Part shown: positions 4,325 through 47,878 of the stretch, piece by piece
How positions within the stretch are numbered: the stretch's first letter is position 1
Layout of the letters: the number at the start of each line of letters is the position of its first letter
NCBI GenBank assembly: GCA_000004695.1
Contig: CM000154.2
Coordinates: forward strand, 4,192,001-4,256,000
Direction of reading: 5' to 3'
From: Dictyostelium discoideum
Lineage: Eukaryota
Length of the DNA stretch: 64,000 bases
Program-made: the position numbers and the translations under genes
Notes under the pieces: generated by a model
Database searches by the model: none
What the model was told of the DNA's origin: nothing
Seen by the model: only the letters and a program-made list of their open reading frames with translations

Positions 4325-5485
4325 TCTTATGGTTCAAGAAATGATGAATTTGATTTTATTACAAGTAATGAAGGTCAATACTATCATCTTACTTCTAGTA
4401 GTTGCGTTAAAACATTGAATGAGTACAGTTTTAACGCAATAATAGAGTCACTCAACAACAACTGTAACTTTATCATTTTAAAGAAAGGTGGCTATATCAA
4501 AACAAGTCATATCAGCGATCCAGTTGATCCTTCTCTTTTAAATAAACCACCTATTCCATCAAGTGATAATGAAGAAGAAGAAGAAGATGATGATGATGAT
4601 GAAGTAAATGAAGATGAATATGAAAATGGAAATGAGGATGAAGATGAAGATGAGGATGAAGATGAAGATGAAGATGAAGATGAAGATGAAGATGAAGATG
4701 AAGATGAAGATGAAGATGAAGATGAAGATGAAGATGAAGATGAAGATGAAGATGAAGATGAAGAATATGAAGATGAAGATGAAGATGAAGATATTATTGG
4801 AGATGACGCTGAGGTTGAAAAAGAAAACAAGAATGGATTTTCTCATTTAGAATCACTACAAATTACACCAATACCTCACGACAAAGATGAAGAACAACCA
4901 GAAAAACCTCAACAACAAGAGATACATCAACAACCAGAGAAACCTCAACAACCAGAGAAACCACAAGAACTACAATCAACTGAAACACCAGGACAAGAAG
5001 TATCAGTTGATTATAAAATCCTTTATGACAGAAAAGCTTTCAAAGAATTTTTATACGGTGGATTCGAAAAATTCACTGAAGATTTGAAACTGCAAATCCT
5101 TGATGCCGGTATCAATTGTTTTTCAGTTTTATTAAATTTAAAGAGTGAAGACTGGTCAAAGTTTTCATTCTTACAATTACCAAAGAGAAATCAATTGGTA
5201 AATTCTTATAAGAAAATTCATAATGAAGCCATCAAAAAAGAGTATCCTTTCGAATCTCCTTTTGATATAGATGACCAAAAAGCCTACGAACAATTCCTTA
5301 AAGATATCGTTAATGATGAAAAAACTATAATGGATTTGGTTGAAGCTGGTTTTGACTCATTTACATCTTTAATTCCATCTGATGATGGCGGTTGGGAAGA
5401 AGTGTCTTTAAATTTACAAGAGATCCTTAAACCTGCGACATGTTTCAACTTAATCAATCAATTAAAATTGGTTGGAAAAGCATAA
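4325..5485 (+). CDS. Terminal exon of the same gene. It holds an acidic (D/E)n repeat encoded by (GAAGAT)n, a PEKPQQ repeat and a globular C-terminal region.
   Basis: The frame continues from the acceptor at 4324 with no stop. The track ORF at 4415..5485 begins at a TTG, not an ATG. Confidence 0.6.
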   Translation, partial: SYGSRNDEFDFITSNEGQYYHLTSSSCVKTLNEYSFNAIIESLNNNCNFIILKKGGYIKTSHISDPVDPSLLNKPPIPSSDNEEEEEDDDDDEVNEDEYENGNEDEDEDEDEDEDEDEDEDEDEDEDEDEDEDEDEDEDEDEDEDEEYEDEDEDEDIIGDDAEVEKENKNGFSHLESLQITPIPHDKDEEQPEKPQQQEIHQQPEKPQQPEKPQELQSTETPGQEVSVDYKILYDRKAFKEFLYGGFEKFTEDLKLQILDAGINCFSVLLNLKSEDWSKFSFLQLPKRNQLVNSYKKIHNEAIKKEYPFESPFDIDDQKAYEQFLKDIVNDEKTIMDLVEAGFDSFTSLIPSDDGGWEEVSLNLQEILKPATCFNLINQLKLVGKA

Positions 5486-8323: not shown

Positions 8324-9613
8324 TTAAAATAAAAAGTATAAAAATAGAGATACCATTATTAATAAGTATTTTGGTATATTCTTACAAGAGCTATTACCAT
8401 CACTATTCTTTTCGAGTAATTCATTTGAGCTTGAGTGATGAATAAAAGGTGGTGGAGGTGTTCCCCTTTTATGTAATGGTGTTGGTGATACGTTTTCTTC
8501 AGAATCCGAAGATGATGAGTCCATAATTGGCAATGGTGATGCTGATACTGATACTGATGTTGATGCTGATGCTGATTCTGATGCTGATTCTGATTCTGAT
8601 GCTGATGCCGATGGTGATGGTGATTCAGATTGAGAAGATTTACTCTCACTATCTTTTTTTTTATCTTCACTACTAGATTCATTAAACTCACTAGATGCTT
8701 GAATAACCTCTTCAGATGAAGATGGTTTTTCTGTAGAAATTGACATTGGTCTAGAGGATATTGGTGTTTGAGTTGGAGTTGGAGTTTGAGTTTGAGTTGG
8801 TGTTTGGCTTGGTGTTTGAGTCGGGGTTGGTGTTTGACTTGGTGTTGGAGTTGGTGTTTGACTTGGTGTTTGACTTGGTGTTTGACTTGGTGTTTGACTT
8901 GGTGTTTGACTTGGTGTTGGTGTTTGAGTTGGTGTTTGAGTTGGTTTTGGTGTTTGACTTGGTGTTGGTGTTTGACTTGGTGTTTGAGTTTGGGTTGGTG
9001 TTAGTGTTTGAGTTTGAGTTGGTGTTGTTGTTTGAGTTTGAGTTGGTGTTGGTGTTTGAGTTGGTGTTGGTGTTTGGCTTGGTGTTTGACTTTCCTCTAA
9101 TGATGATGATGGTGATGGTGATGGTGATGGTGATGGTGATGGTGATGGTGATGGTGATGGTGATGGTGATGGTGATGGTGATGGTGATGGTGATGGTGAT
9201 GGTGATGGTGATGGTGATGGTGATGGTGATGGTGATGGTGATGGTGATGAGTTTGGATCTAATTCACCACATTTTACTTTAATAAAAGAGTTTAATTCTA
9301 ACCATTCACCATTGCAAGTTAAAGCTTTAGTCATTTCGAAAGCATTTGATCTTGTTGAGCATTGATTATTTTTATAAACATCGAAAATATAACCATTGGT
9401 TAATCTTTTTTTAACGGAAAATGAACGTGTTAATTGATCTTGTTGATCGACATTCTCATCTTTACATATTAAATAACTACATCTATTAGCAAGTGTTACA
9501 TTCTTTATAATACCACCATCTTTACAATTTAAACAAACTGTAAAAATTGTAGTATCAATTGAATATATACCAACTAATACATTAAAAAACAATACTACAA
9601 ATAATAATATTTT

Positions 9614-17814: not shown

Positions 17815-18916
17815 TTATTCATCAACATTATCAAGGAAGAAATAATTACCAGCAGCTTTTTGTTCATTATCTTTGATTGAATTTAATTTGTTAATTCTTG
17901 GACGGAAATTGGATGGATCACGACGGAAAGTGATTTCGAGAGATTTAAGGAAAGAGTTCATACCAGTGAGGAGAGATTGTGGAGTATTAGCAACACAAGA
18001 GACACCTGGAATACCATCATAAACGATGACACGATCAGCTAAATAAGTGGCCATAATGAAATCGTGCTCTACGATGAAACCAGATTTACCAGCGTGAAGA
18101 ATGAATCTCTTGATGACTTTAGAGACGATAATACGTTGTTCAGAATCCAAATAAGCGGATGGTTCATCAATGAGATAGATATCAGCAGGTTGACCTAAAC
18201 ATAAAACGATGGCAACACGTTGTAACTCACCACCAGATAAATTGAGTACTTGATTGTCGATGATGTTTTCAATGTTTAATGGTTTAACGACATCGGATTG
18301 GAATTGTGGATGAAGGAAAGTGTTGCAAATACGTTTATTAATCAATTCTCTAACGGAACCTGGGAATTTTGGATCGATTTTTTGTGGTTTGTAACTGACA
18401 TTCAACTCTGGAACTTGAGCATCAGTATCGGATGGCATATGACCAGCCAACATTCTGATAAAGGTGGTCTTACCGGTACCGTTTTGACCCAACATAACGA
18501 TGATTTCAGAATCTGTGAATTGACCTGCTTTAATTTCCAATTTGAAGGTACCCATTGTTTTGGTCATATTTGGATATTTGTAGTTACAATGTTTCTTGAT
18601 CTCTTCTTCATTCTCTGCTGTCTCTGAGAATTTAAAGGTTAATGCATCCTTACGGAATCTCATATTCTCTGTGTGAATATAACCACTAAGGAAAATATTA
18701 ATACCTTCTCTAACAGAGAATGGTAATGTTACAACACCATAAGCACCTGGTGCTCCATAAAGACAACAAATAAAATCTGATAAGTAATCTAAAACACTAA
18801 GATCATGTTCAACTACAATAATATAATTTTGTGATTGAATTAAACCTCTAATAACTTGTGCTGCCTTTAATCTTTGTTTAACATCAAGATAACTTGATGG
18901 TTCATCAAACATATAA
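17815..18916 (-). CDS. abcE1: abcE1 (ABCE1 / RNase L inhibitor), C-terminal exon (from ...[16 protein letters not shown] to the end). It covers the twin ABC nucleotide-binding domains.
   Basis: Walker A (GQNGTGKTT), the LSGGELQR signature, and Walker B ([12 protein letters not shown]). Acceptor TATAG at 18917-18921 on the minus strand. Confidence 0.9.
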
Positions 18917-18985
18917 CTATAATAAAAAAAAAATATATAATATTATATATATATATATATATATAAATATATTAATATTTGATAT

Positions 18986-19051
18986 TGTTGTTGTTGTTGT
19001 TGTTGTTGTTGTGTTGTTGTTGTTGTTGTGTTGTTGTTGTTGTTGTTGTTG
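18986..19051. repeat. (GTT)n microsatellite, (AAC)n on the gene strand, inside the abcE1 intron.
   Basis: Tandem GTT units with two GTG interruptions. Confidence 0.9.
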
Positions 19052-19083
19052 ATTTAAATTTTAATTTCTTTAAAAAAACTTAC

Positions 19084-19793
19084 ACATCGGCTTTTTGAAT
19101 TGCAACAACAGCAATTGCAAAACGTTGTAATTCACCACCTGAAAGTACTGGTACAGTTTTATGAAGTGCTTCTTTTAAGTCAAGACAATCGATCATTTCT
19201 TGTTTATTATCTTTTTCAGATTTAGCATCGAGGATACTTGAGACTACACCAGTGACAGCCTTTGAAAGATTATCAACGTATTGTGGTTTGATGAGTGCTT
19301 TTAAATCTTCACCGAGAATTCTAGTGAAATAGGATTGAAGTTCATTACCACGGAAGAAAGAAATGATTTCATCCCAAGTTGGTGGATTATCGTAGAGACC
19401 TAAATTTGGTTTTAATTTACCAGCTAAAACCTTTAAGGCAGTGGATTTACCAATACCATTGGTACCTACTAAACCCAATACTTGACCTGGACGTGGTGTT
19501 GGTAATCTATGAAGTTTGAAACTGTTTGGACCATAACGATGTGTGGTTTCTTTGGTTAAATTCTTTGGTAAATTAATGATTTGAATTGCTTCGAATGGAC
19601 ATTTCTTTACACAAATACCACAACCATTACAAAGTTCTTCTGAAATGTATGACATCTTTGATGTTGGTTTAACTTCAATACAAAGTTTACCCATCTTTAC
19701 GACTGGGCAATACTTTTTACATTCTTGACTACATTTCTTTGGTTTGCATCTATCTGCATTTACAATTGCTATTCTAATTGCATCATCTGCCAT
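19084..19793 (-). CDS. abcE1: abcE1 N-terminal exon. It covers the Fe-S (4Fe-4S ferredoxin-like) domain and the first nucleotide-binding domain ([31 protein letters not shown]...).
   Basis: ATG at 19793. The donor GTAAGT lies at 19083-19078 on the minus strand, with the exon ending at ...GAT GT. The splice restores ...[15 protein letters not shown], matching human ABCE1 (...[16 protein letters not shown]). The total is 603 aa. Confidence 0.9.
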
Positions 19794-19903
19794 CTTTGTT
19801 TTTTATATATACTATTTGAAATAATTATATTTTTAATAAAATACAGTTACAATTATTTTAAATAATAATATTATTGTGCGTGTTATATAAAAACGAAGTA
19901 ACT

Positions 19904-19942
<39 letters not shown>

Positions 19943-19996
19943 ATGATTTTTTTTTTTTTTTACCGAAATTTTTTTTATTTTTTTTTTAAAAATAAA

Positions 19997-20027
<31 letters not shown>

Positions 20028-20336
20028 GTATCTCACACATTCTTATTTATTTATTAAAATTTTCTAATAAAAAAAGCAGTTTTTTTTTTTTTCTTTTTTT
20101 TTAATTAATTTTTATTTTTATTTAATTTTTTTAAACAAAATAATTATCAAAAAATTTATTAAAATAATTTATTTATTTATTAATTAATTTATTATTATTA
20201 TTCATTTATTTAAATAATAAATAAATATAAATAAATTAAATAAAAAATTAAAAATAAAATAAAAAAAATAAATAAAATAAAATAAAAAAAAAATAAAATA
20301 AATACCTTTTATTTTATTTTATTTTATTTAATTTTT

Positions 20337-22089
20337 TTAATCATCTCTATATTTTATATATTTTGAAATGAAATGAGTATCTAAATTTTTAATATAACGT
20401 GCATATCTATCACAATAGATTACATTTAAATTTTTTGGAATTGTATTAATATCAAAAATTGGTAAAAAACCATAAATATGAATATAATTTAAAGAAGATG
20501 GTAAACAATTGATTGGTGATAAATCAATTATTCTATTACTATAATTAATAATTGTTAAAGATTTTAAATTTGATGGTAAAATTGATGGACCTATTGCATT
20601 TGGATTATTAAAATTATAACATATTGTTAAATATTCTAATGAATTTGGAAAAGAAACTAAAGTTAATGGATGATTATAACCACCTAAATCTAATTTTTTA
20701 AGAGTACTCGGTAGTGATGATTTGTTTATTATTTGATTAAATCCACTACCAAATTTTAAAGTTTTTAATTTTTTATATATTTCATTAAATTCACTACTAC
20801 CACCACCATCACCACCACCACTATTAGGTATATTAATTAATTGATTATAATACCAACCAAATTTTAAAGATTTTAAATTATTTAATTGATTTTTAAATAT
20901 CAAATTATTTAATAAAGGTTGATTAAAATCTTGTTCAAATTTTAATTTTAAAAGATTACTAGGTAAACTATTTTCTTGAATAGCTTGATTGAAATTTACA
21001 CCAAATGATAATTTAGTTAATGACATTGGAAGTGAATTTTCATTTATAATTTGATTAAAATTATTACCAAATCTAATTGTTGATACATTCTCTGGTATAT
21101 CACCATCATTTAAAATATTATTAAATTCATTTTCAAATATTAATGTTGTAGTTGATCTTGGTATATTTAATAAATTATTATTAGAATTAATATTAAATTT
21201 TAAAGTTGTCACTGATTTTGGAATTGATTTTGGTTCAATTTTACCAAAATAATTTTTATTTAATTTTAAAGTTATTAAAGATATTGGTAATTTATGTTTA
21301 ATTAAAATTGGTTGTTGAAATGATGTGCAATATTCTAAATCTAAAGATTTAATTGATTTAGGTAACCATGTTGATTCTATTGTTTGTTTAAAATCTCTAC
21401 CTGTGAATGTTAAACTTGTAATATTCTCATGAAGTGTGAATTCAGTGAATGGTGAACTAAAAATAACATTATTAAATTCTAATTGTGTCAACGATTCTGG
21501 TAAACAATTACAATCGAGTTCAATTGAAAATCCAGTTCTAAATTTAATAGATTTTAAACCATTTAAAAATGTACCTTGTTTAATTTGTAATTTATCATTT
21601 CTATTATCCATTAAATTAATTGATGTTAAATAACTTTTAAATTTATAATTTTTATATTCTTCAATACCTTTAAAATTAATTTCAAATTTATGTAAATTAT
21701 ATAATCTCGAATGAAAAATTATTTCATTTCTTATAACTAAATTATTCCAAACTTTTTTAAATAAATTATAATTTTTATAATTAATTAATTCTTTATTATT
21801 ACTATTATTTTTATTATTATTATTACTATTTTCATTTATAATATGTTTTTTATTATTTATAATATATTTTTTATTATTTTCAATAATTATGAATATTGAA
21901 CAATTAAATTTTATTTTTAAAATATCATTACTATTATTATTATTATCATTATTATTATTATTAAAATAAATTTTATTTATAAAAGTTTCAATATTGTTAT
22001 TATTATTATTTTTATTTAATGATTTTAAATTATTTTTTATTAATTTAAATTGGAATTCATTTAACCCTAAATTATTTTCATAATCATTT
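20337..22089 (-). CDS. FNIP-repeat protein, exon 2 (584 codons). Repeats are of the LP.SLT.L.FG..FNQ type.
   Basis: The track ORF at 20337..21611 is only the part after the first ATG. The same frame is stop-free for a further 159 codons upstream to 22089 and has no start codon there. Typical FNIP-family text (FKKVWNNLVIRNEIIFHSRLYNL). Confidence 0.65.
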
Positions 22090-22162
22090 CTATATTTTTT
22101 TTCAGGGATGTTAATAATAATAATAATTTAATTAATTATTTAAAAAGTGTATTTTTATTTAC

Positions 22163-22317
22163 TTTTTAAAATTTTTTGAGAAAAAGCATTTTAAATTTTC
22201 AATGGAAATGTATAAACCATTAATTGATAGAATTGTGATACAATCTATTAATGAAAATTTATAATATGGTAACCCATCAACACTATTTATTAACCACTCG
22301 TAAACTATATTTTCCAT
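22163..22317 (-). CDS. FNIP-repeat protein, exon 1 (MENIVYEWLINSVDGLPYYKFSLIDCITILSINGLYISIENLKCFFSKNFK + 2 nt).
   Basis: ATG at 22317. The donor GTAAAT lies at 22162 and the acceptor TATAG ends at 22090. The phase-2 junction restores K-N-D-Y-E. Intron of 73 bp. Confidence 0.55.
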
Positions 22318-22688
22318 TGATGATCATCGTTCTTTTTTTTTTATTTTTAATTTTTTTATTTTTTTTTATTTTCTAAATTTCACAAAAAAAAACATTATTT
22401 TTTATTTTTTTTTATATTATTTTTTATTTTATAAATTTGGTAACAATAGCAGTGTGTGAGGGAAATTTGATGACTCAGTGCCAAAGGAAATTTAAAAGAT
22501 ATTTTTTCGAGCTTAAAAATTTTTTTTTTTTTTTCAAAAACTATTAATATCTTTTTTTTTTTTTTTTTTTAGTATAAGATTTATGAATTCCTTTGTTTTT
22601 TAAACTATTATTATTTTTTTTATTTATTTAATTTAAGATTTATGATTTCAATTGTTTTTTATATTATTATTATAATTATTACTATTAT

Positions 22689-22735
<47 letters not shown>

Positions 22736-22739
22736 TATT

Positions 22740-23347
22740 TTAGTTTGGGCAATTATTTCTAACTTTAACATGGCTTGAAATATCACAAGATTCTAGTGAT
22801 TGTTTAAATCCATCAAAAATTGTAATATTTTTAACAGTTTTTGGAATTGAACCAAATAATAAAGGTTGTTTTATATCATATAAAAATAATCTTTCAACAC
22901 CTTCTGGAAGAATACCTGGAGTTAAAGCATGATCAAAACCATCACCTAAAATTACATTCTTTACAGTTGATGGTATTGAACCAACAACTAATGGTTTTTT
23001 AATATTATAAAGATGTAAAAATTCAACACCTTCTGATATTAAACCCGGTGTTAAAACTTGATTAAAACTTTCATTAAATACAATTCTTTTAACAGTTGGT
23101 GGAATTGAACCAACAACTAATGGTTTCTTTATATCATAAATATGTAATCCTTCAACAGTTTCTGGTAATGTATTTGGTTCAATTGATTGGTCAAATCCAT
23201 CTAAAAGCATAACTGCAAATGTTTTTGAATTGAATTTGAATTTTGATATATCAGTACTTTTATTTCCAAATGCAATTCTTGTAAATTCATTTTCTAATGC
23301 ACAATCTGAATCACTTTCAATTTGTAAATAAAATTTAGAGTTTTTAT
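22740..23347 (-). CDS. C-terminal exon of the B-box zinc-finger / FNIP-like-repeat protein. It holds degenerate FNIP-type repeats (IPPTVKRIVFNESFNQVLTPGLISEGVEFLHLYNIKKPL...).
   Basis: The frame is open upstream of the track ORF at 22740..23210 with no start codon. The acceptor AAAG ends at 23348. It joins in phase with the upstream exon. Confidence 0.55.
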
Positions 23348-23438
23348 CTTTTTTTTTTTTTGGAAAAAAAAAAAATAAAATTAAATTAGTTTTTTTTTTT
23401 TTTTTATTTATTTTTTATTTCTATTACAAACTACTTAC

Positions 23439-25137
<1,699 letters not shown>

Positions 25138-28162: not shown

Positions 28163-32968
<4,806 letters not shown>

Positions 32969-37550: not shown

Positions 37551-38435
37551 ATGAAAAATATATCTATATTAATAACTATATTATTATTATTTTTAACAAG
37601 TTTAATAATAAATTTATCAAATTCATATAAATTAGAAAGATATATTGAAGAAAAAGATTGGGAAATAATTGAAAATGAAAAAGAAAATGTATTTAAACCT
37701 GTAATTGTTGAAAGAAGAGAATTATTATTCTTTAGATTCCAAAGAAGTGGAAATACTGAAAATTCATCATCAACTGAATCTGTATCAGTAAAATTTGAAA
37801 TCCATTCAAAAGATATTCAAGAAACTTTTTATTTATTTGGATTAAATAATGAAACTTCTATTAGAAATATTAAAGATGTAGAATTAAAAGATAGAAAAGA
37901 AGAAACCACTCCAATTAGAAAAGAAGCTTGTTTCGACCCTATTAAACCATTATACTTTTCATTATCAATGTTTAATTATTTATGGGGTGGTGATTTATTA
38001 TTCACAATTCAAGAAAATAATTCAAGTTATTGTATAAATTCAATGCCTAAAACGAAAAATGAAACTATTACTCTTATTTCAACTGAAATTCCCACCCCTA
38101 CTCCTACTCCTACCTCTACCCCTACTCCTACCTCTACCCCTACTCCAACCCCTACCTCTACCCCTACTCCAACCCCTACTCCTTCAAAATTATCAAATGA
38201 TACTGTAACTTCTAATAATGTTACCTCTTCACCATTAATTACTCCAACGAGTGTGAGTGTTACTCCTTCACCACCAAAGGTTGAAAATGTACCTGTTATT
38301 GTATCAAATAAACAAAAAATTGAATCTGATTATACTGAATCTGAAGTACCAATTGATACTACTAAGAAATCTCTTGTGGAAACTAGTCCAGCTGTAGAAA
38401 ATAAACAAATAGAATCAAATAGTAATAATAAATAA
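37551..38435 (+). CDS. Secreted or type I membrane protein with a signal peptide (MKNISILITILLLFLTSLIINLSNS) and a (PTPTST)n Pro/Thr-rich stalk.
   Basis: 294-aa ATG ORF with an N-terminal hydrophobic leader and a PT-repeat tract, giving a glycoprotein-like architecture. Confidence 0.6.
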   Translation: MKNISILITILLLFLTSLIINLSNSYKLERYIEEKDWEIIENEKENVFKPVIVERRELLFFRFQRSGNTENSSSTESVSVKFEIHSKDIQETFYLFGLNNETSIRNIKDVELKDRKEETTPIRKEACFDPIKPLYFSLSMFNYLWGGDLLFTIQENNSSYCINSMPKTKNETITLISTEIPTPTPTPTSTPTPTSTPTPTPTSTPTPTPTPSKLSNDTVTSNNVTSSPLITPTSVSVTPSPPKVENVPVIVSNKQKIESDYTESEVPIDTTKKSLVETSPAVENKQIESNSNNK

Positions 38436-38497: not shown

Positions 38498-39122
38498 TTA
38501 TTGTTGTTGAGCATGTAAAGTTTTATGAGCAATTGTAACAGCTTTAACAGATAAATAACTTTGAATTGCATATTCAGATAGGTCACGACCAATACCAGAT
38601 TGTTTATAACCACCAAATGGTATTGATGGCATGATTGAATAATATTCATTAATCCAAACTGAACCACTTTTTAATTTATTTGAAACATTTAATGCTAAAC
38701 TGATATCTTTAGTCCAAACACCAGCTGCTAAACCATAGGTTGTGTTATTTGCTCTTTTAATTACTTCATCAACAGTTTTGAATGGTAAAATTACAACAAC
38801 AGGACCAAAGATTTCTTCTTTACAAATTGTCATATCATCAGTGACATTGGTGAAAATAGTTGGTTGAACGAAATAACCTTTACCATCGGCATGATGATAA
38901 TTACCACCACCTAAATGACAAGTTGCACCTTCTTCTTTACCTTTTTGGATGTAACCTAATACACGATCATGTTGTTGTTTACTAACTAATGGGCCTAAAT
39001 TTGTACCATTTACATTTGGATCACCAACTTTTAATAATTTAATATTCTCTGTGAAAATTTGTAAAAATGCTTCATAGATATTCTCTTGAACAAAGAATCT
39101 TGATGGAGCACAACATGACTGC
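38498..39122 (-). CDS. Aldehyde dehydrogenase paralog A, exon 3 (G + QSCCAPSRFFVQE ... to the C-terminus). It includes the catalytic Cys.
   Basis: Acceptor TTATAG ending at 39123. The frame is continuous with the track ORF at 38498..38833. ALDH motifs are QSCCAPSR and EEIFGPV. Confidence 0.85.
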
Positions 39123-39252
39123 CTATAAAATTTTAAAAAGGGTGAAGAGGGGGGTTGAAAAAAAAAAAAAAAAAAAAAATTAATTTTCCAGTTCCAATTT
39201 TTTCTTTTGGTTAATTAAAAAAGGTAAGATAATTATATATATATATACTTAC

Positions 39253-39962
39253 ATGCTATTGGCGAAAACGTAATCCTTAGCACATTGTGCAATATGGTTA
39301 ACGTCACAGTCGTTAAAGAAGATATTTGGTGATTTTCCACCAAGTTCTAATGTCACTGGTTTTAAATTACTCTTTGCTGCACCCTCCATAATTAATCTAC
39401 CAGTTATAGTTGAACCAGTGAATGAAATCTTATCGATATCCATATGATGTGATAATGCACTACCAACAGTTGCACCAAACCCATTTACTAAATTGAAAAC
39501 ACCAGGTGGGAAACCAGCTTCTTTAATTAACTCACAAAGATATAACGCAGTCAATGGGGTGAATTCAGATGGTTTAGCAACGATTGTGCAACCTGCAGCT
39601 AAAGCTGGTCCCAATTTCCAACATAATAACATACATGGATAATTCCAAGCAACAATTAAAGCAACTACACCAATTGGTTCATGTCTGGTAATTGATGTAT
39701 ATTCATTACTAATTGGAATGGTTTTACCTTGAATTTTATCAGCCCAACCACCGAAATAACGAAGAGTCTTTTCTGATTGTGTTATATCATATCCTTTTGA
39801 TGCTGTCAATGGTTTACCATTATCTAATGTTTCTAATTGTGCTAAATTATCTTTATGTTTTTCAATTAAATCTGCAAATTTTAATATAATTCTACCTCTA
39901 TCTTCAGATGTCATTTTACTCCATTCTCCATTTTCTAATGCTTCTCTTGCTGCTTTCACTGC
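39253..39962 (-). CDS. ALDH-A exon 2 (AVKAAREALENGEWSKMTSEDRG ... ELGGKSPNIFFNDCDVNHIAQCAKDYVFANS-M).
   Basis: Acceptor TTATAG ending at 39963. The exon ends ...AGC AT, and the donor GTAAGT at 39252-39247 contains the track ORF's stop. The ELGGKSP glutamate motif is present. Confidence 0.85.
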
Positions 39963-40083
39963 CTATAAAAAAAAATTTTGAAAAAAAAAAAAAAAAAAAA
40001 AAAGGGGTGAAGAGGGGATTAATTTTCCAGTTCCATTTTTTTTTTTTTTTGTTTTATTAAAAAATTATTATATATATACTTAC

Positions 40084-40233
40084 AATATCAACATCAGCTT
40101 TATCACCTTCAGAAACTTCACAAATTAATTCTTCATTCACTGGATTAAATGTTTTAAATTTCTTTCCAGAAACTGACTCTACCCATTCATTATTAATAAA
40201 TAATTTTGTGTTTGGTAATTGAACTTTTGACAT
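40084..40233 (-). CDS. ALDH-A exon 1 ([50 protein letters not shown]).
   Basis: ATG at 40233. Donor GTAAGT at 40083-40078. The exon is 50 codons, the same as exon 1 of paralogs B and C. Confidence 0.85.
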
Positions 40234-40731
40234 TTTATTGTTTAATTAAACTTTAATTGATTGAATAAAAGAAAAAAAAAAAACATTTTCGTTTGCAGTC
40301 TTTTTAATAAAAAAAAAAAAAAAACAAAAAAAAATAAAAAAATAAAAAAATTAAATTAAAAAAAAAATAAAAAATAAAAAAAAAATCTAAAAATTTTCAC
40401 AATCAAAAAGCAACACTGTTTCGGTTAAAAATAATTTTAATTAATTAATTTTTTTTTTTTTTTTTTTAGATATATAAACGATTTTCGAAATAACACTTTC
40501 CTTTTATAAAAAAAAAAAAAATAAAAAAAAAATAAAAATAAAAATAAAAATAAAAAAAAAAACCAAACTGATACCCAAAATAATAAATAAAAAAAAAAAA
40601 AAAATAAATAAAATAAAAGAATAAAACTAAAATATTCCAGAACATTTTATTTTAAAATAAAATTTTTATTTTATTTTTTATTTTATTTTTTATTTTATTT
40701 TTTTTATTTTTTTTATTTTTTTTATTTCATT

Positions 40732-42069
40732 TTATTGTTGTTGAGCATGTAAAGTTTTATGAGCAATTGTAACAGCTTTAACAGATAAATAACCTTGAAT
40801 TGCATATTCAGATAAATCACGACCAAAACCGGATTGTTTGAAACCACCAAATGGAATTTGAGATTTTAAGATATTGAAACCATTTACCCAAACTGAACCA
40901 CTCTTTAATTTATTTGAAACATTTAATGCTAAACTAATATCTTTAGTCCAAACACCAGCTGCTAAACCATAGGTTGTGTCATTTGCTCTTTTAATTACTT
41001 CATCAACAGTTTTGAATGGTAAAATTACAACAACAGGACCAAAGATTTCTTCTTTACAAATTGTCATATCATCAGTGACATTGGTGAAAATAGTTGGCTG
41101 AATGAAATAACCAGCACCATCGGCATGATGATTATGAACTTCACCACCTAAATGACAAGTTGCACCTTCCTCTTTACCCTTTTGAATGTAACCTAAAACA
41201 CGATCATGTTGTTGTTTACTAACCAATGGACCTAAATGAGTTTCACTATCATATGGATCACCAACTTTTAATTGTTTAATCTTCTCTGTGAATATTGTCA
41301 AGAAAGCATCAAGAATACTCTCATGAACAAAGAATCTTGAAGCGGCACAGCATAGCTGCATACTATTTGCAAAAACGTAATTTTTTGCAGCATTGGCCAC
41401 ATATTCAATGTCGCAGTCACCAAAGATGATATTTGGAGATTTACCACCAAGTTCTAATGTCACCGGTTTCAAATTACTCTTTGCAGCAGCCTCCATAATT
41501 AATCTACCAACTCTAGTTGAACCGGTGAATGAAATCTTGTCAACATCCATATGATGTGATAATGCATCACCAACTACATCACCAACACCATTTACAATAT
41601 TAATTACACCAGGTGGGAAACCAGCCTCCTTAACCAATTCACAAAAGTATAAAGCAGTCAATGGGGTGAACTCAGATGGTTTAGCAACTATTGTACAACC
41701 TGCAGCTAAGGATGGTCCCAATTTCCAAGACAATAGTAACAATGGGAAATTCCAAGCAACGATTAATCCAACTACACCAATTGGTTCATGTTTGGTCATT
41801 GCAGTGAATTCACTACTAATTGGGATGGTTTTACCTTGAATTTTATCAGCCCAGCCACCGAAATAACGTAAAGCTCTAGCAGCTTCAGTAATATCAAAAC
41901 CACTTGATGCTGTCAATGGTTTACCATTATCCAATGTTTCTAAATCTGATAAATGCTCTCTATGTTGATCAACTAAATCTGCCAATTTCAATATTAATTT
42001 ACCTCTATCTTCTGCTGTCATTTTACCCCATGGTCCATTGTCTAATGCATTTCTTGCTGCTTTAACTGC
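40732..42069 (-). CDS. Aldehyde dehydrogenase paralog B, exon 2 (AVKAARNALDNGPWGKMTAEDRG ... to the end). It has no second intron.
   Basis: Track ORF at 40732..42021 extended upstream to the acceptor TTTATAG ending at 42070. Motifs are ELGGKSP and QLCCAASR. Confidence 0.85.
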   Translation of the reverse strand, partial: AVKAARNALDNGPWGKMTAEDRGKLILKLADLVDQHREHLSDLETLDNGKPLTASSGFDITEAARALRYFGGWADKIQGKTIPISSEFTAMTKHEPIGVVGLIVAWNFPLLLLSWKLGPSLAAGCTIVAKPSEFTPLTALYFCELVKEAGFPPGVINIVNGVGDVVGDALSHHMDVDKISFTGSTRVGRLIMEAAAKSNLKPVTLELGGKSPNIIFGDCDIEYVANAAKNYVFANSMQLCCAASRFFVHESILDAFLTIFTEKIKQLKVGDPYDSETHLGPLVSKQQHDRVLGYIQKGKEEGATCHLGGEVHNHHADGAGYFIQPTIFTNVTDDMTICKEEIFGPVVVILPFKTVDEVIKRANDTTYGLAAGVWTKDISLALNVSNKLKSGSVWVNGFNILKSQIPFGGFKQSGFGRDLSEYAIQGYLSVKAVTIAHKTLHAQQQ

Positions 42070-42221
42070 CTATAAAATAAAAAAATAAAAAAATAAAAAA
42101 ATAAAAAAATAAAAAAATAAAAAATAAAAAATAAAAAAATAGAAAATAAAATATTAATTAATTACTTAAAAAAAAAAAAAAAAAAAATTCTATTCATTAA
42201 AAATATTGTTTTTATACGTAC

Positions 42222-42371
42222 AACATCAACATCTTCTTTACCACCTTCTGAAACTTCACAAATTAATTTTCCATTTGTTGGATTAAAAGTTTTTAATTTC
42301 TTTCCAGAAACTGACTCTACCCATTCATTATTAATAAATAATTTAGTATTTGGTAATTGAACTTTAGACAT
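42222..42371 (-). CDS. ALDH-B exon 1 ([50 protein letters not shown]).
   Basis: ATG at 42371. Donor GTACGT at 42221-42216. Intron of 152 bp. Confidence 0.85.
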
Positions 42372-42455
42372 TATATTTTTGTTTAATAATTAATGAAGGA
42401 AAAAAAAAAAATTAATAATAAAAAAAAAAAAGGTGGATATTCATAAATAATATCA

Positions 42456-42494
<39 letters not shown>

Positions 42495-43158
42495 AAATTA
42501 AATTAAATTAAATCTCAGGATGATTGAAGTTTTTTGAGGTTGAATATTAAAAAAAAAAAAATAATAAAAAATAAATAATTGAAGAAAAAAAAAATCTATT
42601 ATAAAGATTGGTGTGAAACCAATGAAAAAAAAAAAAAAAATCTATTATTTATAAAGATTTGTGTGAAACCAATGAAAAAAAAAAAAAATAATAAAAAGAA
42701 AGTTGATATTTAAAAAATTAAATTATTTTTATTAAATTGTTTGAATTTTTGATTTTTTTATTAAACTGTTTGAATTTTTATTATTTTAATTATTTTAAAA
42801 AAAAAATTCTATTGAATGTTTAAAGAACTTCTGAACGTTTGTTCTGAATTAAACCAAACACGGGATAATTTTAAAATTACTTTGTTTGAATATTTAATAT
42901 TAAAAAAATATTTTTCTATTTGGGAATTGTTGTTCTGAATGATTGTTCTATCAAAAAAAAGTTTTTTTTTATTTTTTTTTTTTTCAATTTTACAATTTTA
43001 TTTTTTTTTTAATTTTTTTTTATTTTTTGTAATTTAATTTTTATTTTAATTTATTTTTTTTAATTTATTTTTTTTAATTATTTAAATAAAAAAAAAAAAA
43101 AAAAATTTATTCATTCTTAAATTTTAAAAATAAAATTAATAATAAATTTAAAAAAATA
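42372..43158. promoter_or_regulatory. Bidirectional (head-to-head) intergenic region shared by ALDH-B (-) and ALDH-C (+).
   Basis: 787 bp between divergent ATGs. It contains a tandem duplicated block (gattggtgtgaaaccaatgaaaaaaaaaaaaaaaatctattat...) at about 42612-42690. Confidence 0.35.
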
Positions 43159-43308
43159 ATGTCAAAAGTTCAATTACCAAACACAAAATTATTTATTAAC
43201 AATGAATGGGTAGAGTCAATTTCTGGAAAGAAATTTAAAACATTTAATCCAACAAATGAAGAATTAATTTGTGAAGTTTCTGAAGGTGATAAGGAAGATG
43301 TTGATAAA
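43159..43308 (+). CDS. Aldehyde dehydrogenase paralog C, exon 1 ([50 protein letters not shown]).
   Basis: ATG at 43159. Donor GTATTT at 43309. Confidence 0.85.
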
Positions 43309-43357
43309 GTATTTATAAATATTTTTTGAAAAATTAAAAAAAAAAGTTTTGTAAAAA

Positions 43358-43399
<42 letters not shown>

Positions 43400-43460
43400 T
43401 AATATGTTTTTATTTTTTATTTATTTTTATTTTTTATTTTTTATTTTTTTTTTTTAATAG

Positions 43461-44795
43461 GCAGTAAAAGCAGCAAGAAATGCATTTGAAAATGGACCAT
43501 GGGGTACAACAATGTCATCAGAAGAAAGAGGTAGAATTATATTGAAATTGGCAAATTTAATTGAAAACCATAAAGAGAAACTTGCACAATTGGAAACATT
43601 GGATAATGGTAAATCAATTGTTTCAGCAAGGGAAGATATTGATTTTTGTGTTAGAGTAATTCGTTATTTCGGTGGTTGGGCTGATAAAATTCAAGGCAAA
43701 ACCATCCCAATTAGTAGTGAATTCACATCGATTACTAAACACGAGGCAATTGGTGTAGTTGCTTTAATTGTTGCTTGGAATTATCCAGTGATGTTGTTAT
43801 GTTGGAAATTGGGACCAGCTTTAGCTGCAGGTTGTACAATCGTTGCTAAATCATCTGAATTCACCCCATTGACTGCATTATATCTTTGTGAATTATTTAA
43901 AGAAGCTGGTTTCCCACCTGGTGTTTTCAATTTAGTCAATGGGTTTGGTGCAACTGTTGGTAATGCATTATCATATCATATGGATATCGATAAGATTTCA
44001 TTCACTGGTTCAACTATAACTGGTAGAAAAATTATGGAAGGTGCAGCAAAGAGTAACTTAAAACCAGTGACATTAGAACTTGGTGGTAAGTCTCCAAATA
44101 TCTTCTTTTCAGACTGCCAAATTGATCATTGTGTTGAGGCTGCTAAGGATTACGTATTCTCAAATAACAGTCAAAACTGTTGCTTCTCATCAAGATTCTT
44201 TGTTCATGAGAGTATCCATGACGCTTTCTTGGCATTATTCACAGAGAAGATTAAACAATTAAAAGTTGGTGATCCATATGAAGAATCCAACAATTTAGGC
44301 CCATTGGTTAGTAAACAACAACATGATCGTGTATTGGGTTACATTGAAAAAGGTAAGAGTGAAGGTGCAACTTGCCATTTAGGTGGTGTTAAACATCAAA
44401 TTGATGGTAAAGGTTATTTCGTTCAACCAACTATTTTCACCAATGTCACTGATGATATGACAATTTGTAAAGAAGAAATCTTTGGTCCTGTTGTCGTAAT
44501 TTTAAAATTCAAAACTGTTGATGAAGTAATTAAAAGAGCAAATAACACAACCTATGGTTTAGCAGCTGGTATTTGGACTAAAGATATCAGTTTAGCATTA
44601 AATGTTTCAAATAAATTAAAAGCTGGTTCAGTTTGGGTAAATAATTATGATAACTGTTTACCACAAGTACCATTCGGTGGTTTCAAACAATCTGGTATTG
44701 GTCGTGATTTATCTGAATATGCAATTCAAAGCTATTTATCTGTTAAAGCTGTTACAATTGCTCATAAAACTTTACATGCTCACCAACAACAATAA
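43461..44795 (+). CDS. ALDH-C exon 2 (AVKAARNAFENGPWGTTMSSEERG ... to the end).
   Basis: Acceptor TTTTTAATAG at 43451-43460. The frame is continuous with the track ORF at 43512..44795. Motifs are ELGGKSP and QNCCFSSR. Confidence 0.85.
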   Translation, partial: AVKAARNAFENGPWGTTMSSEERGRIILKLANLIENHKEKLAQLETLDNGKSIVSAREDIDFCVRVIRYFGGWADKIQGKTIPISSEFTSITKHEAIGVVALIVAWNYPVMLLCWKLGPALAAGCTIVAKSSEFTPLTALYLCELFKEAGFPPGVFNLVNGFGATVGNALSYHMDIDKISFTGSTITGRKIMEGAAKSNLKPVTLELGGKSPNIFFSDCQIDHCVEAAKDYVFSNNSQNCCFSSRFFVHESIHDAFLALFTEKIKQLKVGDPYEESNNLGPLVSKQQHDRVLGYIEKGKSEGATCHLGGVKHQIDGKGYFVQPTIFTNVTDDMTICKEEIFGPVVVILKFKTVDEVIKRANNTTYGLAAGIWTKDISLALNVSNKLKAGSVWVNNYDNCLPQVPFGGFKQSGIGRDLSEYAIQSYLSVKAVTIAHKTLHAHQQQ

Positions 44796-47007: not shown

Positions 47008-47878
47008 TTGTATAATTAAGAACAGTAATTTGAGAATCATTAAATTTAGTACCAGTTAATTTCATTGTTTTAAGATAATTTTCAGAATCTTTTAATGATA
47101 CAATTGTTTCATTTGGTGCGAAATTGATATCAGAGTATTCAATTAAATGTGATTGTAAAAACTCTTGGAAGAGTTCTTTTGATGCATTAGCTTCGTCATA
47201 GCCAGTGATTGAAACTTCATTTCTCTTATAGTTGATAGAATTCTTTTGAGTATATTGATTATTATTATTATTATTGTTGTTATTATTGTTGTAGTTATTA
47301 TTTTGATAACCACCTTGTTGCATTCTATTATTGTTATAATTGTTGTTGTTGTTGTTGTTATTTTGGTAACCGCCACCTTGTTGCATTCTATTGTTATTAT
47401 TTTGATAACCACCTTGTTGGTTATTGTTATTGTTGTTGTATCTATTTTGGTAACCACCTTGTTGGTTGTTATTGTTATATCTGTTGTTGTTATTGTTTTG
47501 GTATCCGCCTTGTTGGTTATTGTTATTGTTGTATCTGTTGTTGTTGTTATTTTGATAACCACCTTGTTGACGGTTATTATTATTGTTATTGTTATAGTAA
47601 TTATTACTATTATTACTATTACCGCTATAATCTCCTCTACCACCTGATGATCTGTTGTTATTGTTGTTGTAGTTATCACGTTCATCATCTTGAGTTTGTG
47701 GTGGTTGTTGTTGTTGTGGTGGTTGTTGTTGTTGTTGTTCAACTACTGGTTCTGGTTGAATTGATGCTTGAGGTAAAGAAGATTGAGTTGGTTGTTGTGG
47801 TTGAACTGGTTCAACAATTGCTTTCATCTCATTCTCTCTCTCTTCATTTTCAGTTTCATCTGCCCAATTTAGACTCAT
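47008..47878 (-). CDS. Exon 1 of the Q/N/G-rich protein. It has an acidic N-terminus (MSLNWADETENEE), a poly-Q/P region, (QQGGYQNNNN)n repeats and a globular segment (EVSITGYDEANASKELFQEFLQSHLIEYSDINF).
   Basis: ATG at 47878. The donor GTAAAT at 47007-47002 sits inside the track ORF's tail, so the ORF's last 20 residues are intron read-through. Function unknown (RGG/YQ-like low-complexity, possibly RNA-binding). Confidence 0.55.

What the first reader, a model, noticed from the sequence alone, without database searches (positions are those of the whole stretch)
39123..40083. ALDH-A carries an extra intron that is a diverged duplicate of its own first intron
Shared intron. All three ALDH paralogs (A: 38498-40233 minus; B: 40732-42371 minus; C: 43159-44795 plus) share intron 1 at the identical position, after codon 50 (…DVDI/V/K | AVKAAR…).

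Extra intron. Only paralog A has a second intron, 39123-39252 (130 bp), splitting …FANS-M|QSCCAPSR. In B and C the same codons are contiguous.

Homology of the two A introns. Read on the gene strand, both begin GTAAGTATATATATA. Both contain AAT(T)GGAACTGGAAAATTAAT, both contain CCCCTCTTCACCC, and both end AAAATTTTATAG followed by exonic GCAGT. The match is too extensive for chance in AT-rich DNA and points to intron gain by duplication or reverse-splicing of a resident intron.
Basis: seen in the sequence. Interest (0 to 1): 0.8.

Follow-up and report, generated by a model that had tools for sequence, protein, structure and literature searches.

The report
Young intron copied from neighbouring intron
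In one Dictyostelium discoideum aldehyde dehydrogenase gene, the second intron is a recent full-length copy of the gene's own first intron, inserted at the only other TGCAGT in the coding sequence. This is a rare, datable intron gain whose source is known.

Summary
The observation and the interpretation both hold. The window is D. discoideum AX4, and ALDH-A equals XP_635634.1/Q54FY3.

- **Intron homology.** Intron 2 (39123-39252) and intron 1 (39963-40083) share an exact 18-mer and an exact 13-mer. Neither occurs anywhere else in 242 kb examined. Composition-weighted alignment gives z of about 23, against about 1 for the introns of paralogs B and C.
- **Phylogenetic distribution.** Intron 2 is present at the same site in three D. 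discoideum genomes. It is absent from two 'cf. discoideum' lineages, D. citrinum (two genomes), D. firmibasis, D. dimigraforme, D. purpureum, P. violaceum and T. lacteum. It is also absent from every B and C paralog.
- **Direction of the copy.** Intron 1 of the intron-2-less 'cf. discoideum' genomes already carries the motifs, in the arrangement that intron 2 preserves. Intron 1 is therefore the donor. AX4 intron 1 later suffered a private deletion.
- **Target site.** TGCAGT occurs exactly twice in the spliced CDS, and both occurrences are the exon junctions of the two introns.
- **Mechanism (inferred).** Homology-guided copying. I favour microhomology-primed template switching (about 0.5) over reverse splicing (about 0.35).

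This is a new member of a known but rarely documented kind. A genome-wide scan for further copies and RNA-seq could not be run.

The parts
38498..40233 (-). ALDH-A gene (start codon to stop codon), three exons. Exon 1 is 40084-40233, exon 2 is 39253-39962, exon 3 is 38498-39122.
   Evidence: The spliced ORF of 494 aa is identical to XP_635634.1/Q54FY3, aldehyde dehydrogenase of D. discoideum AX4. Pfam PF00171 is recorded for its cluster.
39963..40083 (-). Intron 1 (121 nt, phase 0, after codon 50). This is the old donor intron.
   Evidence: The position is shared with paralogs B and C, with all A orthologs and with P. violaceum. In ACTFIY and ACTFIZ, which lack intron 2, it already carries the motifs.
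39123..39252 (-). Intron 2 (130 nt, phase 2, in codon Met287). This is the recently gained full-length copy of ancestral intron 1.
   Evidence: It is needed to keep the reading frame. It is present in 3 of 3 D. discoideum genomes and absent from 8 other A orthologs and outgroup genes and from all B and C copies. Homology to intron 1 gives z = 16-26.
40018..40035 (-). Motif 1, TGGAACTGGAAAATTAAT, copy in intron 1.
   Evidence: Exact 18-mer. It occurs only in ALDH-A introns in 242 kb.
39179..39196 (-). Motif 1, TGGAACTGGAAAATTAAT, copy in intron 2.
40005..40017 (-). Motif 2, CCCCTCTTCACCC, copy in intron 1. It directly abuts motif 1 because of an AX4-private deletion.
   Evidence: Layout comparison.
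39140..39152 (-). Motif 2, CCCCTCTTCACCC, copy in intron 2. It contains TTCAC (a yUnAy-like sequence) about 21 nt upstream of the 3' splice site. This is a candidate branch site plus pyrimidine tract, by inference only.
   Evidence: The position was read.
39210..39226 (-). Block TACCTTTTTTAATTAAC in intron 2. D. discoideum intron 1 has largely lost it, but D. dimigraforme intron 1 still has it as TACCTTTATTAATTAAC.
   Evidence: The local alignment of AX4 intron 2 against D. dimigraforme intron 1 scores 26.0, above all 300 shuffles (maximum 23.1).
39958..39962 (-). GCAGT, the first 5 nt of exon 2 (donor junction). Together with the T at 40084 it forms TGCAGT in the spliced mRNA.
   Evidence: TGCAGT occurs only at CDS nt 150 and 860.
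39118..39122 (-). GCAGT, the first 5 nt of exon 3 (target junction), preceded by the T at 39253. It contains the only CAG among the 17 Gln codons of the gene.
   Evidence: The empty site in ACTFIZ reads AGCATGCAGTCA, identical to the spliced AX4 sequence.
40732..42371 (-). Paralog ALDH-B. It has a single intron at 42070-42221 after codon 50 and no intron at the intron-2 site (ATGCAGCTA is contiguous).
   Evidence: The intron has no similarity to the A introns (z = 1.6).
43159..44795 (+). Paralog ALDH-C. It has a single intron at 43309-43460 after codon 50 and no intron at the intron-2 site.
   Evidence: z = 0.9.

Best explanation
Intron 2 of ALDH-A is a young, complete, same-orientation copy (GT to AG) of the ancestral form of the gene's own intron 1.

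**Timing (shown).** The copy was made in the D. discoideum sensu stricto lineage, after the split from the 'cf. discoideum' ACTFIY lineage and before AX4 separated from ACTFIR/ACTFIW.

**Insertion (shown).** The copy sits 710 coding nucleotides downstream of the donor, with no gain or loss of exon bases. It lies between T and GCAGT, the only other TGCAGT in the coding sequence and the same hexamer that spans the donor's exon junction.

**Function (inferred).** The copy brought its own 5' splice site, branch/pyrimidine region and 3' splice site, so it is removed as an ordinary spliceosomal intron and the enzyme is unchanged.

**Later decay (shown).** D. discoideum intron 1 lost the ATCTTACC block. 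AX4 intron 1 also lost the T-run/CAA spacer between the two motifs. This explains why the two AX4 introns look rearranged relative to each other.

**How the copy was made (inferred).** It was a homology-guided copy-and-paste. I favour a template-switch event at about 0.5. In this model a 3' end at the target anneals through the 5-nt GCAGT microhomology next to intron 1, copies through the intron, and rejoins at the T. The polymerase could be a DNA polymerase during break repair or replication, or a reverse transcriptase working on A transcripts, with the cDNA then recombining into the gene. Classical reverse splicing of the excised intron 1 into an A transcript, followed by reverse transcription and recombination, gets about 0.35.
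For: **Gain rather than loss.** Intron 2 is in AX4, ACTFIR and ACTFIW at the same site. The site is empty in ACTFIY, ACTFIZ, D. citrinum (two genomes), D. firmibasis, D. dimigraforme, D. purpureum (two genes), P. violaceum and T. lacteum, and in all B and C copies. Three independent regions give the topology (((AX4,(FIR,FIW)),FIY),FIZ),(citrinum, dimigraforme, firmibasis).

**Homology.** There are exact 18-mer and 13-mer matches found nowhere else in 242 kb. Composition-weighted alignment gives z = 16-26 against intron 1 of the discoideum complex and about 1 against the introns of B and C.

**Polarity.** The motifs are present in intron 1 of ACTFIY and ACTFIZ, which lack intron 2. Intron 2 keeps the layout motif 1 - T-run - CAA - motif 2, as seen in intron 1 of FIR, FIW, FIY and FIZ. 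It also keeps a block shared with D. dimigraforme intron 1.

**Precision.** The ACTFIZ empty site AGCATGCAGTCA equals the spliced AX4 junction.

**Target homology.** GCAGT and TGCAGT occur only at CDS nt 151/861 and 150/860, which are the two junctions. The expected number of TGCAGT in this CDS is 0.26. The chance of hitting the single other site is about 1 in 1484.

**Still spliced.** Exon 3 is intact. Synonymous:nonsynonymous codon differences are 6:2, 7:1 and 7:1 among D. discoideum strains, and 16:1, 16:1 and 16:0 against ACTFIY. The annotated protein equals the spliced model.

**Feasibility of an RNA route.** D. discoideum shows hundreds of reverse-transcriptase-type intron losses (PMC4683709).
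Against: - I could not scan the whole AX4 genome, so a third, older source copy elsewhere is not excluded.
- No RNA-seq or EST was examined. Splicing of intron 2 is inferred from ORF conservation and from the deposited protein.
- The phylogeny rests on this one locus (three regions) and on nine genomes.
- The mechanism step is not decided. The exact GT...AG unit is what reverse splicing predicts. Under template switching it must be explained by 1-nt microhomology plus selection against imprecise products.
- The state of exon position +4 before the gain is ambiguous. It is G in ACTFIZ and in paralog B. It is A in ACTFIY and in citrinum, firmibasis and dimigraforme.
Confidence: 0.88

Rival explanations
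1. The event is the same (intron 1 copied to make intron 2), but by classical intron transposition. The excised intron 1 lariat, still in a post-catalytic spliceosome, reverse-splices into an ALDH-A transcript at a site that mimics its own ligated-exon junction (U|GCAGU). The RNA is reverse transcribed, and a short cDNA patch recombines into the gene without removing intron 1.
For: - The copied unit is exactly the intron, GT to AG, in the same orientation and inside the same transcript, with no exon bases gained or lost.
- The contiguous hexamer TGCAGT exists for the donor only in spliced RNA, and the target is the only other TGCAGT in the mRNA.
- Reverse-transcriptase-mediated gene conversion is inferred to be active in D. 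discoideum (PMC4683709).
- A catalytically active intron-lariat spliceosome has been proposed as a route to intron transposition (PMC10996645).
Against: - Reverse splicing into a new site has never been shown in vivo (review PMC3443670).
- From general knowledge of spliceosome structure, exon recognition by U5 loop 1 involves mostly positions -3 to +1/+2. A match concentrated at +1 to +5, with only one upstream base, is not specifically predicted. It is what a priming microhomology looks like.
- Three rare steps are needed, and the conversion tract must stop before intron 1.
Confidence: 0.35
2. Intron 2 is ancestral to the A lineage and was lost precisely and independently in every other lineage. 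Its similarity to intron 1 would then come from later gene conversion between the two introns.
For: Precise intron loss is frequent in D. discoideum (441 cases, PMC4683709).
Against: - On the topology this needs at least four independent precise losses (FIY, FIZ, citrinum/dimigraforme, firmibasis), plus absence from B, C, D. purpureum, P. violaceum and T. lacteum.
- Intron 2 resembles only the discoideum-complex-specific version of intron 1.
- Full-length conversion between two introns whose flanks share only 6 nt is itself a duplication event.
Confidence: 0.03
3. Both introns are insertions of a mobile, multi-copy intron-generating element (an introner or introner-like element, or a MITE) present at many places in the genome. 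Intron 1 was overwritten by it and intron 2 was created by it.
For: Introners create families of similar introns in several eukaryotes (PMC9860276, PMC3609843). The whole genome could not be searched here.
Against: - There are no further copies in the 64-kb window or in 178 kb of related loci.
- There is no target-site duplication and no terminal inverted repeat (sequence).
- There is no stable secondary structure (z = -0.54 and +0.39).
- Intron 1 sits at an ancient position shared with B, C and P. violaceum. It grades into the intron 1 of relatives, with weak residual similarity to D. dimigraforme (z = 5.8) and D. firmibasis (z = 4.3), rather than being replaced.
Confidence: 0.05
4. The similarity is chance or low-complexity resemblance between two AT-rich Dictyostelium introns.
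For: Most of both introns is A/T runs. An unweighted score also makes the B and C introns look similar to each other (80, against 82 for A1-A2).
Against: - The matches that matter contain G and C, in introns with only 5-8% of each.
- With composition-weighted scoring z = 22.6, against 0.9-1.6 for the B and C introns.
- The 13-mer has an expectation of 0.05 per 64 kb.
- The same motifs are conserved in six D. discoideum intron copies and in two 'cf. discoideum' introns.
Confidence: 0.01

Closest known systems
Intron gain by duplication of a pre-existing intron of the same gene: Drosophila Xdh (Tarrio, Rodriguez-Trelles and Ayala 1998, PNAS 95:1658). The reference was seen. Its content is recalled from my own knowledge, because the paper is not held.
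   Same: A lineage-specific new spliceosomal intron whose sequence is homologous to an older intron in the same gene.
   Different: - The case here is in Amoebozoa.
- Polarity is fixed by intron-2-less sister genomes that already carry the donor version.
- The insertion site shares a unique hexamer (T|GCAGT) with the donor junction.
Intron transposition in Mycosphaerella/Zymoseptoria and in Oikopleura. These are the 14 'unambiguous' events listed in the review PMC3443670, which cites Torriani et al. 2011 and Denoeud et al. 2010.
   Same: Recently gained introns with clear sequence homology to other introns of the same genome. They are interpreted as reverse splicing or a mimic of it.
   Different: - Those are mostly copies between different genes. 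In fungi they were later attributed to multi-copy introner-like elements with stable structure (PMC3609843).
- Here there is a single donor-copy pair within one gene, no predicted structure and no other copies in 242 kb.
The two sourced intron gains reported in D. discoideum (Ma et al. 2015, PMC4683709): intron 2 of DDB_G0275263 and intron 4 of DDB_G0273471.
   Same: Same organism. These are gained introns with an identifiable source sequence and no flanking direct repeats.
   Different: - Their sources were part of an intron of another gene and a CDS/3'UTR segment.
- The authors state that no source was an entire intron of the same or another gene, and that no proposed model fitted.
- The ALDH-A case is an entire intron of the same gene, so it fits the transposition/duplication model.
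- It would have failed their BLAST filter (E <= 1e-10, coverage >= 80%, similarity >= 0.85).
[quoted passage not shown] 2009, as summarised in PMC3443670), and templated insertions by polymerase-theta end joining (general knowledge).
   Same: Microhomology at the junction (5 nt GCAGT and 1 nt T) and a filler sequence copied from a nearby template in cis.
   Different: - Daphnia-type gains show short direct repeats flanking the new intron and have unknown sources.
- Here there is no flanking repeat, and the filler is a complete functional intron.

Membership tests
Intron gain by intron duplication/transposition (a new spliceosomal intron derived from a pre-existing intron) | The new intron is absent at the orthologous site in outgroups and paralogs, on a resolved phylogeny. 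| tested here: met
   It is present in 3 D. discoideum genomes. It is absent from 8 other dictyostelid genomes or genes and from all B and C copies. Topology.
Intron gain by intron duplication/transposition (a new spliceosomal intron derived from a pre-existing intron) | Significant full-length sequence homology between the new intron and another intron. | tested here: met
   Exact 18-mer plus 13-mer, z = 22.6 with composition-weighted scoring, and collinear from 5' splice site to 3' splice site.
Intron gain by intron duplication/transposition (a new spliceosomal intron derived from a pre-existing intron) | The donor is older than the copy (polarity). | tested here: met
   The position of intron 1 is shared with B, C and P. 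violaceum. The motif-bearing intron 1 exists in ACTFIY and ACTFIZ, which lack intron 2.
Intron gain by intron duplication/transposition (a new spliceosomal intron derived from a pre-existing intron) | Precise insertion: the exon sequence is unchanged after splicing. | tested here: met
   The ACTFIZ empty site AGCATGCAGTCA equals the spliced AX4 junction. The ORF is intact.
Intron gain by intron duplication/transposition (a new spliceosomal intron derived from a pre-existing intron) | An RNA intermediate (reverse splicing, reverse transcription). | not testable with these tools
   This needs transcript or experimental data. The flank microhomology fits a template switch at least as well.
Introner / introner-like elements | Many near-identical copies across unrelated genes. 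| tested here: inconclusive
   There are only the two ALDH-A copies per genome in 242 kb sampled. The whole genome was not searchable.
Introner / introner-like elements | Transposon hallmarks (target-site duplication, terminal inverted repeats), or the stable predicted secondary structure of fungal introner-like elements. | tested here: not met
   There is no target-site duplication or terminal inverted repeat at the boundaries. Folding energies are no better than shuffles (z = -0.54 and +0.39).
Intron gain by tandem genomic duplication of an AGGT-containing exon segment | The new intron sequence duplicates the adjacent exon sequence. | tested here: not met
   Intron 2 is 80% A+T intronic sequence homologous to intron 1, 710 coding nt away. 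It is not homologous to the flanking exons.
DSB-repair intron gain with flanking short direct repeats (Daphnia type) | Short direct repeats flank the inserted sequence. | tested here: not met
   The boundaries are AGCAT|GTAAGT...TATAG|GCAGTC, with only a 1-nt ambiguity (G) and no flanking repeat. Microhomology is to the donor locus instead.
Aldehyde dehydrogenase family, Pfam PF00171 (host gene) | Full-length match to the Aldedh domain, and the catalytic Cys motif is retained. | tested here: met
   PF00171 is recorded for the cluster, and the protein is identical to the annotated AX4 aldehyde dehydrogenase. The SCCAPSR motif lies just 3' of intron 2. Assigning the catalytic Cys rests on general knowledge of ALDHs.

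The most novel reading that the evidence does not exclude
The locus may be a natural footprint of spliceosomal reverse splicing with target choice by junction mimicry. In this reading an excised intron re-entered its own transcript at the single site (U|GCAGU) that looks like its ligated-exon product and was then fixed in the genome. That would be the cleanest single-event evidence for the long-postulated, never-demonstrated intron transposition pathway. It would also sit in a genetically tractable organism, where the empty-site allele (as in ACTFIZ) can be rebuilt and the reaction looked for.
Probability: 0.3. Interest if true: 0.8.

Novelty: new member of a known kind. Interest (0 to 1): 0.6.

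Why it matters
How new spliceosomal introns arise is a long-standing open question, largely because the source of gained introns is almost never identifiable. The 2012 review (PMC3443670) lists only 14 unambiguous intron-transposition events. The Dictyostelium survey (PMC4683709) found no gained intron derived from an entire intron.

All the elements of a strong case are present here:
- a resolved presence/absence pattern across nine closely related genomes;
- an identified donor in the same gene;
- a fixed polarity;
- a precise empty site;
- a unique 6-nt identity between donor and target junctions, which constrains the mechanism to a homology-guided one.

D. discoideum is easy to engineer. 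The competing mechanisms (reverse splicing against microhomology-primed template switching) therefore become experimentally testable at this locus.

Tried and rejected
- **Unweighted alignment and longest common GC-containing substring with dinucleotide shuffles.** These were uninformative, because T-runs dominate. B and C introns score 80 against each other, and one shuffle reached an 18-nt 'match'. I replaced them with a composition-weighted log-odds alignment and with motif counts.
- **Known RNA in the introns.** Rfam at E <= 1 gave only a sub-threshold patAB leader hit (24 bits against a gathering score of 92, E = 0.41), which I treat as chance.
- **Structured element.** Both introns fold no better than shuffles.
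- **Ancestral intron with multiple losses.** Rejected on phylogeny.
- **Tandem duplication of exon sequence, and transposon insertion with target-site duplication.** Rejected by direct reading.
- **Whether Ma et al. 2015 had this gene in their table of discordant introns.** I do not know its DDB_G identifier. A prefix search of the supplement was inconclusive.
- **Tarrio et al. 1998.** The paper could not be read because it is not held.
- **Whole-genome search for other copies.** None of the searchable collections holds eukaryotic genomes as DNA, so this was not possible.
Full report
**1. What is in the window**

The region is very AT-rich, with GC-richer exons. On the minus strand, 38498-40233 holds a three-exon aldehyde dehydrogenase gene. 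Joining 40233-40084, 39962-39253 and 39122-38498 gives a 494-codon ORF. Leaving 39123-39252 in place gives a stop codon straight after Met287. The 494-aa product is identical, residue for residue, to XP_635634.1/Q54FY3, 'aldehyde dehydrogenase [Dictyostelium discoideum AX4]'. So the window is D. discoideum AX4, and both introns are part of the deposited gene model.

Two paralogs follow: B (40732-42371, minus) and C (43159-44795, plus). Each has a single 152-nt intron after codon 50, the same position and phase as intron 1 of A. Both are uninterrupted where A has intron 2. Every coordinate in the finding is correct.

**2. Is the similarity of the two A introns real?**

Read on the gene strand, both introns begin GTAAGTATATATATA. 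Both contain TGGAACTGGAAAATTAAT and CCCCTCTTCACCC. Both end ...AAAATTTT(T5)ATAG and are followed by exonic GCAGT.

These introns hold only about 5-8% each of G and C, so G/C-containing matches carry nearly all the information.

- In the 64-kb window the 18-mer (up to 3 mismatches) and the 13-mer (up to 2 mismatches) hit only these two introns, apart from one 3-mismatch hit at 2651. The expectation for the 13-mer is 0.05.
- A plain match/mismatch score is misleading, because T-runs make even the B and C introns score 80 against each other.
- With a composition-weighted log-odds score, AX4 intron 2 against AX4 intron 1 scores 67.3. Shuffles give 13.4 +/- 2.4, so z = 22.6. Against the introns of B and C, z is 1.6 and 0.9.

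No Rfam family reaches its threshold, and neither intron folds better than shuffled controls. There is therefore no sign of an embedded RNA gene or a structured element.

**3. Comparative evidence**

The A protein clusters with orthologs in several newly deposited genomes. I fetched the loci for the following:

- D. citrinum (two genomes: L001, L002)
- D. firmibasis (L003)
- 'D. cf. discoideum' ACTFIY (L004) and ACTFIZ (L005)
- D. dimigraforme (L006)
- D. discoideum ACTFIR (L007) and ACTFIW (L008)
- D. purpureum (L009)
- Polysphondylium violaceum (L010)
- Tieghemostelium lacteum (L011)

*Presence and absence.* A tblastn search with the A protein shows residues 51-494 contiguous in the A orthologs of citrinum, firmibasis, dimigraforme, ACTFIY and ACTFIZ, and in every B and C ortholog. 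Only ACTFIR and ACTFIW break at residue 287/288, as AX4 does. They carry 136- and 132-nt introns at exactly the AX4 site. D. purpureum has introns elsewhere. P. violaceum shares intron 1 but has nothing at residue 287. T. lacteum is intronless.

*Phylogeny.* Distances from the A coding sequence and from two flanking regions all give (((AX4,(FIR,FIW)),FIY),FIZ), with citrinum, dimigraforme and firmibasis outside. One gain on the D. discoideum sensu stricto stem explains the pattern. The loss alternative needs at least four independent precise losses, plus absence in all paralogs.

**4. Direction of the copy**

Intron 1 of citrinum, firmibasis and dimigraforme lacks the two motifs. Intron 1 of ACTFIY and ACTFIZ, which have no intron 2, has both motifs. 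The motif-bearing version of intron 1 therefore predates intron 2.

In FIR, FIW, FIY and FIZ, intron 1 has the layout motif 1 - T-run - C(A)AA - motif 2 - T-run - AAAATTT..ATAG. That is the layout of intron 2 in all three D. discoideum genomes. Only AX4 intron 1 has the two motifs abutting.

Intron 2 also keeps a 5' block (ATCTTACCTTTTTTAATTAACCAAAAG). FIZ intron 1 partly retains it (ATCTTGTAATTAA). D. dimigraforme intron 1 retains it as TACCTTTATTAATTAAC, with a score of 26.0, above all 300 shuffles. D. discoideum intron 1 has mostly lost it.

Intron 2 is thus a full-length snapshot, GT to AG, of ancestral intron 1.

**5. The insertion site**

The empty site in ACTFIZ reads AATAGCATGCAGTCATG. 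That is identical to the AX4 sequence after removal of intron 2, so no exon base was gained or lost and there is no target-site duplication.

The donor junction is ...GATATT|GCAGTG and the new junction is ...TAGCAT|GCAGTC. In the spliced A coding sequence, GCAGT occurs at nt 151 and 861 only, and TGCAGT at 150 and 860 only. These are exactly the two exon junctions.

- The composition-based expectation for TGCAGT in this CDS is 0.26.
- A randomly placed intron would hit the single other site with probability of about 1/1484.
- The CAG within this hexamer is the only CAG among the 17 Gln codons of the gene.

ACTFIY and the three outgroup species read GCAAT at this site. ACTFIZ and paralog B read GCAG. 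There are two possibilities:

- The rare CAG pre-existed, with a reversion in FIY, and created a unique homologous target.
- The G arrived together with the intron.

Either way the event was guided by, or transferred, donor-flank sequence.

**6. Is the new intron functional?**

This is inferred, not shown.

- Its 5' splice site is GTAAGT in AX4 and GTACGT in FIR and FIW. Its 3' splice site is TATAG.
- Exon 3 has stayed open.
- Synonymous:nonsynonymous codon differences in exon 3 are 6:2, 7:1 and 7:1 among D. discoideum strains. Against ACTFIY they are 16:1, 16:1 and 16:0.

This pattern is expected only if exon 3 is still translated in frame, which requires that intron 2 is removed precisely. 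The deposited protein agrees. Motif 2 contains TTCAC about 21 nt upstream of the 3' splice site and is followed by pyrimidines. It is a plausible branch site carried along with the copy, but this is inference only.

**7. Mechanism**

*Shown:* a complete intron was copied, in the same orientation, 710 coding nt (831 genomic nt) downstream within the same gene, at the only site sharing T|GCAGT with the donor junction.

*Inferred:* how the copy was made. I considered two models.

(a) *Microhomology-primed template switching.* A 3' end at the target pairs with GCAGT next to intron 1 and copies through the intron. The product rejoins at the T. The polymerase may be a DNA polymerase during break repair or replication. 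It may instead be a reverse transcriptase switching between spliced and unspliced A RNAs, with the cDNA then recombining. This model directly explains the 5-nt plus 1-nt flank identity. It would also explain a co-transferred G at +4. The exact 5' boundary must then be attributed to selection, because any imprecise product would disrupt the catalytic-site region.

(b) *Classical reverse splicing followed by reverse transcription and short-patch recombination.* This model explains the exact GT...AG unit intrinsically. It also fits the fact that TGCAGT is contiguous for the donor only in spliced RNA. However, known exon contacts of the spliceosome do not specifically predict identity at +1 to +5 (general knowledge). 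The pathway has never been observed in vivo (PMC3443670). A catalytically active intron-lariat spliceosome has been proposed as a route (PMC10996645), and reverse-transcriptase-mediated conversion is inferred to be common in D. discoideum (PMC4683709).

I put about 0.5 on (a), about 0.35 on (b), and the rest on other or undetermined routes.

**8. Comparison with what is known**

The kind is known: intron gain by duplication or transposition of an existing intron. The review PMC3443670 counts 14 unambiguous transposition events (Mycosphaerella, Oikopleura). A same-gene intron duplication was reported for Drosophila Xdh by Tarrio et al. 1998 (reference seen, content from memory).

In Dictyostelium, Ma et al. 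2015 (PMC4683709) found 40 putative gains in D. discoideum and a source for only two. They state explicitly that neither source is an entire intron of the same or another gene. Their BLAST filter would not have passed this pair.

I found no paper describing this locus. It does not meet the tested features of:

- introners: no target-site duplication or terminal inverted repeats, no structure, and no further copies in 242 kb, although genome-wide copy number is untested;
- tandem exon duplication;
- Daphnia-type gains flanked by direct repeats.

**9. Verdict**

This is a new, unusually well-polarised member of a known but rarely documented class. The unique junction hexamer makes the mechanism testable.

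Main caveats:

- There was no whole-genome scan for other copies.
- There was no transcript evidence.
- The phylogeny comes from one locus.
- The ancestral state at exon position +4 is unresolved.

Noticed in passing
window 38498-44795 (ALDH-A, B and C coding sequences): Identity between the three paralogs is mosaic, from 0.62 to 0.99 per 90-nt window. A and C are 0.94-0.98 identical over CDS nt 451-720, and all three are 0.96-0.99 identical over nt 1171-1260. This suggests gene-conversion tracts. The 90-nt window holding the intron-2 site (nt 811-900) is among the least similar (0.66-0.73).
   Followed up: partly
L007, L008 (D. discoideum ACTFIR, ACTFIW); L004, L005 ('cf. discoideum') compared with the window: Assemblies labelled D. 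discoideum differ from AX4 by about 2% in the A coding sequence (4.5% at third positions) and by 4% in a flanking region. The 'cf. discoideum' genomes differ by 3-8%. That is a lot for one species and suggests a species complex.
   Followed up: partly
window 42072-42145 (intron of ALDH-B) and 43360-43396 (intron of ALDH-C): The B intron is mostly a tandem array of about ten ATTTTTT(T) units. The C intron holds an uninterrupted run of 37 A. Neither resembles the A introns.
   Followed up: no
window 37551-38435 (+): An ORF of 294 aa has a hydrophobic N-terminus and a (TPTPTS)n-like Thr/Pro repeat. This explains the local GC rise to 35-39% and the strong C-over-G skew just downstream of ALDH-A. 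Relatives have a gene of 273-312 aa called at the equivalent place.
   Followed up: no
L006 11889-13440 (D. dimigraforme), minus strand: D. dimigraforme has a fourth ALDH gene directly downstream of its A ortholog (P0009, about 63-64% identical to A). AX4 has no counterpart in that position. Its A intron 1 is also much longer, at 213 nt.
   Followed up: no
L009, L010, L011 (D. purpureum, P. violaceum, T. lacteum ALDH genes): Intron positions in this ALDH family turn over quickly. P. violaceum shares the codon-50 intron and has two others near residues 365 and 445. One D. purpureum gene has breaks near residues 148 and 255-258, and the other has a break at 211/212. The T. lacteum gene is intronless.
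   Followed up: partly
window 18800-24200, 28600-29800, 47200-47600, about 62000; also 4600-4800 and 8800-9200: Many G/C-containing 16-mers recur between these places. They are most likely coding trinucleotide (CAA-type) and other tandem repeats typical of Dictyostelium. I did not inspect them.
   Followed up: no
window 39987-40052 (-), inside intron 1: There is a sub-threshold Rfam match to the bacterial patAB leader (24.4 bits, gathering score 92, E = 0.41). I regard it as chance in A/T-rich sequence.
   Followed up: yes
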